This document shows, piece by piece, positions 1-3,000 of a stretch of DNA of 64,000 nt (positions within the stretch are counted from its first letter, which is position 1; each line of letters starts with the position of its first letter). A program made the position numbers. Source of the DNA: Escherichia coli (GTDB lineage: Bacteria > Pseudomonadota > Gammaproteobacteria > Enterobacterales > Enterobacteriaceae); the NCBI RefSeq assembly GCF_044647545.1, contig NZ_CP172818.1. One strand, written 5' to 3'.

Positions 1-3000
1 AATAACCCGCTCGGCTTCTGGGTCAGCTCCGCAATGGCGGGGGCGTATGTGGGTCTTGGGATCATCCTGATTTTCACGCTCGGTAATTTGCTCGACCCGT
101 CCGTACGTCCTCTGGTGATGGGCGCGACCTTTGGTATCGCCTTAACGCTGGTCATTATTGCTGGTTCTGAACTGTTCACCGGACACACCATGTTCCTCAC
201 CTTTGGAGTGAAAGCGGGCACTATCAGCCACGGGCAAATGTGGGCAATCCTGCCGCAAACCTGGCTGGGTAACCTGGTTGGTTCCGTCTTTGTTGCCATG
301 CTCTATAGCTGGGGCGGCGGTAGCCTGCTGCCGGTAGATACCAGCATCGTTCACTCCGTCGCGCTGGCTAAAACCACTGCACCGGCAATGGTACTGTTCT
401 TCAAAGGTGCATTGTGTAACTGGCTGGTTTGCCTGGCTATCTGGATGGCGCTGCGCACTGAAGGGGCGGCGAAATTTATCGCTATCTGGTGGTGTCTGCT
501 GGCATTTATCGCGTCCGGCTACGAGCACTCCATCGCGAACATGACGCTGTTCGCCCTCTCCTGGTTTGGCAACCACAGCGAAGCCTACACGCTGGCGGGT
601 ATTGGTCATAACCTGCTGTGGGTGACGCTGGGTAATACTTTATCAGGTGCCGTATTCATGGGATTGGGTTATTGGTATGCTACGCCGAAAGCGAATCGTC
701 CGGTTGCGGACAAATTTAATCAAACTGAAACAGCTGCCGGTTAATTACTAAGGGGTTTTTACGTGGATCATTTGCCTATATTTTGCCAATTACGCGATCG
801 CGACTGTCTGATTGTCGGCGGTGGTGATGTCGCGGAACGCAAAGCAAGGTTGCTGTTAGACGCAGGCGCTCGCTTAACGGTGAATGCATTAGCGTTTATT
901 CCACAGTTCACCGCATGGGCAGATGCAGGCATGTTAACCCTCGTCGAAGGGCCATTTGATGAAAGCCTTCTCGACACCTGCTGGCTGGCGATTGCAGCGA
1001 CAGATGATGACGCGCTTAACCAGCGCGTCAGTGAAGCCGCTGAAGCTCGTCGCATCTTCTGTAACGTGGTCGATGCGCCGAAAGCCGCCAGCTTTATTAT
1101 GCCGTCAATTATTGACCGCTCACCGCTCATGGTCGCGGTCTCCTCTGGCGGCACCTCTCCGGTTCTGGCACGCCTGTTGCGTGAAAAACTTGAATCACTG
1201 CTGCCGTTGCATCTGGGCCAGGTAGCGAAATACGCCGGGCAATTACGCGGTCGAGTGAAACAACAGTTCGCCACAATGGGTGAACGTCGCCGTTTCTGGG
1301 AAAAACTGTTCGTTAATGACCGTCTGGCGCAGTCGCTGGCAAACAACGATCAGAAAGCCATTACTGAAACGACCGAACAATTAATCAACGAACCGCTCGA
1401 CCATCGCGGTGAAGTGGTGCTGGTTGGCGCAGGTCCGGGCGATGCCGGGCTGCTGACACTGAAAGGACTGCAACAAATTCAGCAGGCAGATGTGGTGGTC
1501 TACGACCGTCTGGTTTCTGACGATATTATGAATCTGGTACGCCGCGATGCTGATCGCGTTTTCGTCGGCAAACGCGCGGGATACCACTGCGTACCGCAGG
1601 AAGAGATTAACCAGATCCTGCTGCGGGAAGCGCAAAAAGGCAAACGCGTGGTGCGACTGAAAGGCGGCGATCCGTTTATTTTTGGCCGTGGTGGCGAAGA
1701 GCTGGAAACACTGTGCAATGCAGGCATTCCGTTCTCGGTGGTTCCGGGTATTACCGCAGCTTCTGGTTGCTCTGCCTATTCGGGTATTCCGCTCACGCAT
1801 CGCGATTATGCCCAGAGCGTACGCTTAATTACCGGACACTTAAAAACCGGTGGCAAACTGGACTGGGAAAACCTGGCGGCAGAAAAACAGACGCTGGTGT
1901 TCTATATGGGGTTGAATCAGGCCGCGACTATTCAGCAAAAGCTGATTGAACACGGTATGCCTGGCGAAATGCCGGTGGCAATTGTCGAAAACGGAACGGC
2001 AGTCACGCAGCGCGTGATTGACGGTACGCTCACGCAGCTGGGCGAACTGGCGCAGCAAATGAACAGTCCATCGCTAATTATTATTGGTCGGGTTGTTGGC
2101 CTGCGCGATAAATTGAACTGGTTCTCTAACCATTAATTTAACCAGGGCCAGAGAATTCTGGCCTTTTTCGTTTACAACTCTCTTTATATATTCAGCAGAT
2201 AAAAATACCCCCCTTAATAAATATTATCTGCTAATGGGTTATATTCACCGTTACAGCGACTTACAAAATTAAGTCATTCGTTCACTGACGCCAATTAAAT
2301 ATTCCTGTATCATTCTTAATGAGCAGTCTGCTTATATTCATATAATCAATGAATATTAATCAATATATAATACATAGGGAATGTAAATGAACAAATTTAT
2401 TAAAGTTGCACTGGTAGGTGCGGTACTGGCTACGTTAACTGCATGTACTGGTCATATTGAAAACCGTGATAAGAACTGCTCTTACGACTACCTGCTGCAC
2501 CCAGCTATTTCTATTTCTAAAATCATTGGCGGTTGCGGTCCTACTGCACAGTAAGTCTCTGACAGAAATTGGCTGATGCTGATTTATTGCCTGCGCCCTC
2601 GGGTTTCCGGGGTCCAGAATTAAACGTCGGCAATACTCTCGCGCAAAATCCGCAATACCGTCTCTTCACCGCTGCGATTTGGGTTAATACGAATCGCGTA
2701 ATGTTCGAGTTGCGGATTCGCCTGGCGAAACGTTCCGGAAAGTCGATAAAAAAGTGGCGGAATTTCATATTTCGACTCCGCGCCCACCGGATACGGCAAC
2801 GCGCCGCGTTTCTGCGCCTCCTCCAGCACCCTGGCGGCAATCGGCTGATGAAACTCGACAATCAACACCTTCGACTGTGCATTGGCAATGACGGCGCTTT
2901 TCACTTCCGGAACTGCACCACCGTTGAGCAAGGCCAGCAACCGCTCAGATACCCCCGCCTGCACCGCGTGCATCACTGGCGCAAACACCAGCCCACGCAA

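What the first reader, a model, noticed from the sequence alone, without database searches (positions are those of the whole stretch)
2555..2619. frlABCDR (fructoselysine utilisation) operon absent between yhfL and yhfS
Seen: the yhfL stop (2554) and the yhfS stop (2620, minus strand) are only 65 bp apart. Established: in K-12 the roughly 5-kb frlA-frlB-frlC-frlD-frlR operon lies between these two genes. Inference: this genome is a non-K-12 lineage lacking the frl island, a known presence/absence polymorphism. The junction has no obvious mobile-element scar, only a short GC-rich hairpin-like stretch (gccctcgggtttccggggtcc).
Basis: partly seen in the sequence, partly recalled or inferred. Interest (0 to 1): 0.3.

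Follow-up and report, generated by a model that had tools for sequence, protein, structure and literature searches.

The report
frl operon absent; ancestral empty site
This E. coli (ST648-like, phylogroup F) lacks the fructoselysine-utilisation operon between yhfL and yhfS, which is a common and already published difference between strains, and the unusually short 65-base junction is most likely a local sequencing or assembly error.

Summary
yhfL ends at 2554 and the convergent yhfS ends at 2620, which leaves a 65-bp gap, and no frl gene lies anywhere in the window. K-12 does carry frlABCDR between these two genes. The polymorphism is common and published: 3300 of 5426 complete E. coli genomes have frl, 2101 have yhfL and yhfS adjacent, and absence of frl is described as a hallmark of phylogroup B2.

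Two refinements follow.

1. The empty site is the ancestral state, not a deletion. E. albertii, E. whittamii, other Escherichia, Citrobacter, Enterobacter, Klebsiella and Buttiauxella all have yhfS beside yhfL or cysG with no frl. This explains why there is no scar.

2. The 65-bp spacing is unique to this sequence. Every frl-negative genome examined has 106-107 bp, containing a conserved yhfL intrinsic terminator. Outside four loci the window is 100% identical to ST648-type genomes. At 2587-2613 it has five single-base deletions plus a 38-bp deletion, which remove the terminator's 3' arm and T-run. The window also holds an obvious low-quality homopolymer patch at 32146-32717.

The finding is ordinary and already known.

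The parts
763..2136 (+). cysG (siroheme synthase), the conserved left-hand neighbour of yhfL
   Evidence: ORF. It has the same coordinates as the annotated cysG in FDAARGOS_497 (L004:763-2136), and blastn lists no difference from that genome across it.
2387..2554 (+). yhfL (55-aa YhfL family protein)
   Evidence: ORF. It is 100% identical to K-12 YhfL over 55 aa and is annotated as yhfL in relatives.
2555..2619 (.). yhfL-yhfS intergenic junction, the empty frl site. It is 65 bp here and 106-107 bp in the frl-negative E. coli examined.
2566..2585 (+). Small hairpin just after the yhfL stop codon (AAATTGGC-TGAT-GCTGATTT). It is unchanged from the closest relative.
   Evidence: The fold gives the same helix in the window and in L004. 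The sequence is identical to FDAARGOS_497.
2587..2613 (+). Cluster of window-specific losses: five single-base deletions (A, A, A, T, A) and a 38-bp deletion placed between 2612 and 2613
   Evidence: Base-by-base comparison with NZ_CP033850.1 and the alignment. No complete genome reaches 99% identity or more over the junction query. The junction has 0 metagenome hits, against 3 for the canonical allele.
2594..2612 (+). Remnant of the yhfL intrinsic terminator. The 5' arm CGCCCTCGGG is kept, the loop is shortened, only CCGGGG remains of the 3' arm, and the T-run is missing.
   Evidence: Relatives have an 11-bp stem, a 4-nt loop and ATTTTTT, at -21.8 kcal/mol and z -4.84. The scan calls no terminator in the window. 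The hairpin is 97% paired across 7 Escherichia sequences, with one compensatory pair.
2620..3705 (-). yhfS (PLP-dependent aminotransferase-fold enzyme), convergent with yhfL and the first gene of the yhfS-yhfZ/php cluster
   Evidence: ORF. It is 96.4% identical to K-12 YhfS and is annotated as yhfS.

Best explanation
The window comes from an E. coli chromosome of the ST648 / phylogroup F type. It carries the ancestral, never-occupied yhfL-yhfS junction. The fructoselysine/psicoselysine operon frlABCDR is a segment of about 5.24 kb that replaces about 30 bp of spacer in only part of the species, including K-12 and O157:H7. By inference from near-identical relatives and population counts, this strain lacks the FrlA transporter, FrlD kinase, FrlB deglycase, FrlC epimerase and FrlR regulator, and so cannot use these Amadori compounds through that pathway. 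The junction normally holds the yhfL Rho-independent terminator, an 11-bp GC-rich stem followed by a T-run, and then about 30 bp up to the yhfS stop codon. In this window the 3' half of that terminator and the spacer are missing, through five 1-bp deletions plus one 38-bp deletion. This is most likely a local sequencing or assembly error rather than biology.
For: Shown:
- Gene identities and the 65-bp gap.
- K-12 carries frlABCDR at this site.
- No frl sequence is in the window.
- 3300 of 5426 genomes have frl, always chromosomal and nearly always at one place. 2101 have a contiguous yhfL-yhfS. The two counts sum to 5401 of the 5413 genomes that matched the yhfL-yhfS query.
- The published literature treats frl absence as a B2 hallmark.
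- Every non-E. coli species recovered with yhfS next to yhfL or cysG lacks frl there. Among the 80 loci, only E. coli E69 has it.
- The empty-site spacer is homologous across Escherichia species.
- The K-12 segment has no flanking repeat longer than 8 bp. Its only annotated genes are frlABCDR, and its GC content of 54% equals that of the flanks.
- The terminator is conserved and shows covariation.

For the artefact reading:
- Across about 62 kb, the window is 100.000% identical to FDAARGOS_497 outside this cluster, one garbage patch, an IS1 difference and one clean deletion.
- The patch at 32146-32717 is unmistakably low-quality sequence, with poly-A runs of 19-20 and a poly-C run of 17. Its left margin begins mainly with single-base deletions.
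- No complete genome and no metagenome contig carries the 65-bp allele. The canonical allele is found in metagenomes.
Against: - Absence of frl elsewhere in this particular genome cannot be checked, because only 64 kb is available.
- That ST648-type genomes lack frl entirely is inferred from complementary counts. It was not confirmed by looking the accessions up in the frl hit list.
- The junction shows only deletions. It has none of the homopolymer blurring seen in the garbage patch, so it could be a genuine strain-specific complex deletion.
- The window also carries one clean deletion that looks real (2852 bp at 62000/62001), so this strain does have private structural changes.
- The 0 versus 3 metagenome hits are small numbers.
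Confidence: 0.9

Rival explanations
1. The 41-bp net loss at 2587-2613 is a real, strain-specific complex mutation, for example slippage or template-switching at the terminator hairpin. It would remove the yhfL terminator, so that yhfL transcription reads antisense into the 3' end of yhfS.
For: Both coding sequences are untouched, with the yhfL and yhfS stop codons intact. The changes are pure deletions with no homopolymer blurring. The same window has another private, clean deletion bounded by an imperfect direct repeat. Hairpins are known hotspots for complex mutations (general knowledge).
Against: Five separate 1-bp deletions sit within 27 bp, next to a 38-bp deletion, in a sequence that otherwise has 0 differences over tens of kb. 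One of them lies 8 nt upstream of the stem, outside the hairpin. The same assembly demonstrably contains corrupted sequence. The allele is absent from 5426 complete genomes and from the metagenome collection.
Confidence: 0.3
2. The frl operon was deleted from this lineage, so the empty site is derived and K-12 keeps the ancestral state.
For: 61% of complete E. coli genomes carry frl.
Against: E. albertii, E. whittamii, two other Escherichia genome-species, Citrobacter, Enterobacter, Klebsiella spallanzanii, Buttiauxella and Cedecea all have yhfS directly beside yhfL or cysG with no frl. The 106-114 bp spacer of frl-negative E. coli aligns along its whole length with the spacer of those species. 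A deletion would have had to restore that spacer exactly. No frl remnant is present.
Confidence: 0.05
3. The frl genes are present in this genome but at another locus, outside the window.
For: Only 64 kb of the genome can be seen.
Against: Across 5426 genomes frl occurs at 3310 places in 3300 genomes and never on plasmids. The counts of frl-positive (3300) and contiguous-junction (2101) genomes are complementary, summing to 5401 of 5413.
Confidence: 0.03

Closest known systems
frlABCDR presence/absence polymorphism of E. coli. The fructoselysine pathway is from Wiame et al. 2002 and 2004. Absence in phylogroup B2 is reported by Fang et al. 2018 (PMC5996543) and called a 'hallmark of B2' in bioRxiv 10.1101/2025.09.14.675865.
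   Same: The locus is the same (between yhfL and yhfS), the five genes are completely absent in the same way, and the predicted phenotype is the same: no growth on fructoselysine or psicoselysine.
   Different: The window belongs to the ST648 / phylogroup F type rather than B2. The papers read here describe the absence mainly for B2. They do not state that the empty site is the ancestral configuration shared with other Escherichia species and Citrobacter.
Canonical yhfL-yhfS junction of frl-negative E. coli (for example FDAARGOS_497 NZ_CP033850.1 at 998442-998547, or MS1657)
   Same: The first 32 bp after the yhfL stop codon and the last 7 bp before the yhfS stop codon are identical. The 5' arm of the terminator is retained.
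   Different: The window is 41 bp shorter: five 1-bp deletions plus 38 bp. It lacks the 3' arm, the T-run and the spacer of about 30 bp.
Rho-independent (intrinsic) terminator
   Same: The relatives' junction has the textbook anatomy of an 11-bp GC-rich stem, a 4-nt loop and ATTTTTT. The window retains half of it.
   Different: The window's version has no T-run and only a weak alternative hairpin (-14.7 kcal/mol, z -1.85). As written, it would not be expected to terminate transcription.

Membership tests
frl-negative E. coli genotype (empty yhfL-yhfS site) | yhfL and yhfS are adjacent and convergent with no gene between them | tested here: met
   a 65-bp gap, with no ORF of 40 aa or more lying wholly inside it.
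frl-negative E. coli genotype (empty yhfL-yhfS site) | No frlA, frlB, frlC, frlD or frlR sequence in the region | tested here: met
   tblastn and blastn of the K-12 frl genes against the window give chance hits only (best E = 0.87).
frl-negative E. coli genotype (empty yhfL-yhfS site) | No frl operon anywhere else in the genome | not testable with these tools
   Only 64 kb of the source genome is available. Indirect support comes: the counts are complementary (3300 + 2101 = 5401 of 5413), and frl is never on a plasmid and almost never at a second place.
frl-negative E. coli genotype (empty yhfL-yhfS site) | Spacer homologous to the 106-107 bp spacer of other frl-negative strains | tested here: inconclusive
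   the spacer is homologous at both ends, but 41 bp are missing, probably through sequence error.
Intrinsic terminator | GC-rich stem-loop immediately followed by a T-run | tested here: not met
   One search finds no terminator-like site in window 2200-3000. One search finds one at the homologous place in L004 (2595-2620 plus ATTTTTTCTC).
Mobile genomic island or excision scar | Integrase or IS, a tRNA or attachment-site repeat, or atypical composition at the polymorphic site | tested here: not met
   No tRNA occurs in window 1-6000 and no Rfam family is found at the junction. The K-12 segment has no flanking repeat longer than 8 bp, its only annotated genes are frlABCDR, and its GC content of 54% matches the flanks. 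The similarity of the spacer to the island ends is no higher than for shuffled sequences.

The most novel reading that the evidence does not exclude
The clustered deletions at 2587-2613 are real. A hairpin-associated complex mutation would have removed the conserved yhfL terminator in one ST648-type strain. yhfL transcription would then run antisense into yhfS and the php cluster. This would be a natural loss-of-terminator allele at a convergent gene pair.
Probability: 0.25. Interest if true: 0.15.

Novelty: already known. Interest (0 to 1): 0.08.

Why it matters
It matters little beyond annotation. Absence of frl predicts that the strain cannot use the food-derived Amadori compounds fructoselysine and psicoselysine. 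That trait already appears in metabolic comparisons of E. coli phylogroups. There are two useful by-products. The empty site is shown to be ancestral, so frl is a gain within E. coli rather than a loss in B2 and F. The source assembly is also shown to contain locally corrupted sequence, so fine details such as the 65-bp gap, the "hairpin" and the region at 32.1-32.7 kb should not be over-interpreted.

Tried and rejected
- **Mobile-element scar.** I looked for a tRNA, an Rfam family and flanking repeats, and found none.
- **Insertion point.** I tested whether the spacer of about 30 bp in the empty site survives at either end of the K-12 frl segment, which would fix the exact insertion point. 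Local alignment scores equalled those of shuffled sequences, so I make no such claim. An earlier impression by eye of a shared AAAAATAT motif is rejected as chance.
- **Source genome.** I tried to identify it by exact look-up of three ORF products from the garbage patch. None is on record.
- **Independent copies of the junction.** I searched the metagenome contigs for the window-specific junction and found none. The control with the canonical junction found 3.
- **Strain BS-04.** This strain shares the garbage at the toxin-antitoxin locus, so I checked whether it is also damaged at yhfL. It is not. It is frl-positive with the same 294-bp yhfL-frlA spacing as K-12.
- **Deletion in this lineage.** This reading is rejected on the outgroup evidence.

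Full report
**Observation.** The window opens with the end of nirC (34..744), followed by cysG (763..2136) and a 55-aa ORF at 2387..2554 (+). A 361-aa ORF lies on the minus strand at 2620..3705, followed by yhfT, yhfU, php, yhfW and yhfX. The 55-aa product is 100% identical to K-12 YhfL, and the 361-aa product is 96.4% identical to K-12 YhfS. The quoted string gccctcgggtttccggggtcc lies at 2595-2615.

**K-12 gene order.** In K-12 MG1655 the annotated order is cysG, yhfL, frlA, frlB, frlC, frlD, frlR and then yhfS on the opposite strand. There are 5319 bp between the yhfL and yhfS stop codons. tblastn with the five K-12 Frl proteins and blastn with the whole K-12 inter-stop segment find only chance matches in the 64-kb window.

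**How common the state is.** A 601-bp query across the junction matched 5413 of 5426 complete E. coli genomes. In 2101 of them a single place covers 80% or more of the query, meaning yhfL and yhfS are contiguous. The K-12 frlA-frlR DNA is present in 3300 of 5426 genomes. It is always on the chromosome, with 3310 places in all and none on plasmids. The two classes sum to 5401, so they are essentially complementary. About 39% of sequenced E. coli lack frl, and where it is present it sits at one place.

The polymorphism is published. Fang et al. 2018 report that the transporter and the frl operon are missing from B2 strains (PMC5996543). A 2025 preprint calls absence of fructoselysine and psicoselysine degradation a hallmark of B2 (10.1101/2025.09.14.675865).

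**Lineage of the window.** The first 20 kb of the window is 100.0% identical to a set of genomes that includes the strain named ST648, ECONIH1, MS6198 and FDAARGOS_497. ST648 is a phylogroup F lineage (PMC12736214). The window therefore extends the familiar B2 pattern to F, which is not surprising.

**Which state is ancestral.** I scanned one genome per bacterial species with the window's YhfS and a 10-kb flank, then located K-12 NirC, CysG, YhfL, the Frl proteins, YhfS and YhfT in the 80 loci returned.
- In E. albertii, E. whittamii, Escherichia sp. MOD1-EC7003 and the record titled E. coli SCPM-O-B-8794, yhfS is followed directly by yhfL.
- The same holds in several Citrobacter, an Enterobacter, several Buttiauxella and others, where yhfS is followed directly by yhfL or, where yhfL is missing, by cysG. 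Klebsiella spallanzanii and Cedecea are of the cysG type.
- Only the E. coli E69 locus has frl.
- The 107-114 bp spacers of the other Escherichia species align along their whole length with the 106-107 bp spacer of frl-negative E. coli.

The empty site is therefore ancestral, and frl is a gain within E. coli.

Homology between the K-12 allele and the empty allele runs from the yhfL stop codon through the terminator to GTATTTGTTTCT, and resumes at the yhfS stop codon. Between these points K-12 has 5242 bp (L002:9332-14573) where the empty allele has about 30 bp. The ends of the K-12 segment share no direct or inverted repeat longer than 8 bp, and its GC content of 54% equals that of the flanks. 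Similarity of the 30-bp spacer to either end of the segment is no better than for shuffled sequences. No tRNA and no Rfam family is present at the site. How the segment was acquired remains unknown.

**What the junction normally contains.** In FDAARGOS_497 the spacer folds into an 11-bp stem with a 4-nt loop (ACGCCCTCGGG ATTT TCCGAGGGCGT) followed by ATTTTTT. It folds at -21.8 kcal/mol with a z-score of -4.84, and the consensus scan calls it a terminator. Across seven Escherichia sequences 97% of cells are paired, and one pair shows compensatory changes from GC to AU or UA. This is the yhfL Rho-independent terminator. That reading is inferred from its anatomy and position.

**What is odd in the window.** A base-by-base comparison with FDAARGOS_497 over about 62 kb shows differences at four loci.
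- At 2587-2613 there are five single-base deletions (A, A, A, T, A) and a 38-bp deletion.
- At 32146-32717 the sequence is replaced by something unrelated (next paragraph).
- An IS1 copy present in the reference is absent from the window.
- A 2852-bp segment is absent at 62000/62001.

Everywhere else identity is 100.000%. The junction changes remove the 3' arm of the terminator, its T-run and the spacer. No terminator is called in the window. The remaining hairpin is weak, at -14.7 kcal/mol with a z-score of -1.85. No complete genome reaches 99% identity over a 181-bp junction query, and all top hits are 41 bp longer. The window-specific junction has no exact match in the metagenome contigs, whereas the canonical F-type junction has three.

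**Why I read this as an artefact.** The stretch 32146-32717 is plainly corrupted. The RelE/ParE toxin and NadS antitoxin genes of all relatives are replaced by a blurred, homopolymer-rich copy, with poly-A runs of 19-20 and a poly-C run of 17. Its left margin begins mainly with isolated single-base deletions, which is the same kind of error as at the junction. A cluster of five independent 1-bp deletions beside a 38-bp deletion, in a sequence with no other substitution over tens of kb, is far more typical of a local consensus failure than of mutation.

The case is not closed. The junction shows no homopolymer blurring, both coding sequences are intact, and the window carries one clean private deletion bounded by an imperfect direct repeat. 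I put the artefact reading at about 0.65-0.7 and a real complex deletion at about 0.3.

**Verdict.** The finding is correct and its interpretation is supported, but it describes a common polymorphism that is already published. Two refinements follow. The empty site is ancestral, so frl is a gain. The 65-bp spacing and the "hairpin-like stretch" are a damaged copy of the conserved yhfL terminator, probably through sequence error. Interest is low.

Noticed in passing
window 32146-32717 (between the pckA terminator and envZ): A homopolymer-rich stretch (poly-A runs of 19-20, a poly-C run of 17) replaces the RelE/ParE toxin and NadS antitoxin genes that all ST648-type relatives carry at L004:32225-32897. 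The order of surviving motifs is preserved, as in a blurred copy. The left margin starts mainly with single-base G drop-outs. It is the only such patch in the window. It generates spurious ORFs of up to 177 aa.
   Followed up: partly
L006:880-1380 (E. coli BS-04, NZ_CP172819.1): An unrelated RefSeq 'complete' assembly shows the same kind of homopolymer garbage at exactly the same toxin-antitoxin locus, with the same right-hand boundary (tttgcaagcgaatcc). Part of it is annotated as a hypothetical protein. Among 5426 genomes it is the only one whose sequence aligned across the window's patch. Its yhfL-frlA region is normal. Why two independent assemblies fail at the same locus is unexplained. 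The cause could be a systematic sequencing or polishing problem, or something about the DNA at that locus.
   Followed up: partly
window 62000/62001 (between glpD and glgP): 2852 bp are missing that every listed ST648-type complete genome carries (a hypothetical gene plus two PstS-family phosphate-binding protein genes). The breakpoints lie in an imperfect direct repeat, CCCACTCGCC and CCCACACGCGACC, which fits either a real microhomology-mediated deletion or an assembly collapse.
   Followed up: partly
window about 55127-55136 (rtcA/rtcB region): The IS1 copy that sits between rtcA and rtcB in FDAARGOS_497 is absent from the window. This is an ordinary IS polymorphism.
   Followed up: no
loci L052-L086: YhfS has homologues at 51-57% identity in Clostridia, Erysipelotrichaceae, Lachnospiraceae, Paenibacillaceae, Fusobacterium, Leptotrichiaceae and Brachyspira. 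This suggests that yhfS itself is widely distributed across phyla. Gene context in these loci was not examined. Some Citrobacter, Providencia, Photorhabdus and Serratia loci pair a close YhfS with a YhfT only about 30% identical to the E. coli protein.
   Followed up: no
window 2566-2585: A second small hairpin lies directly after the yhfL stop codon (AAATTGGC/GCTGATTT in the phylogroup F type, AAATCGGC/GCCGGTTT in the MS1657 and K-12 types). The changes between lineages keep the pairing. Its function is unknown.
   Followed up: no
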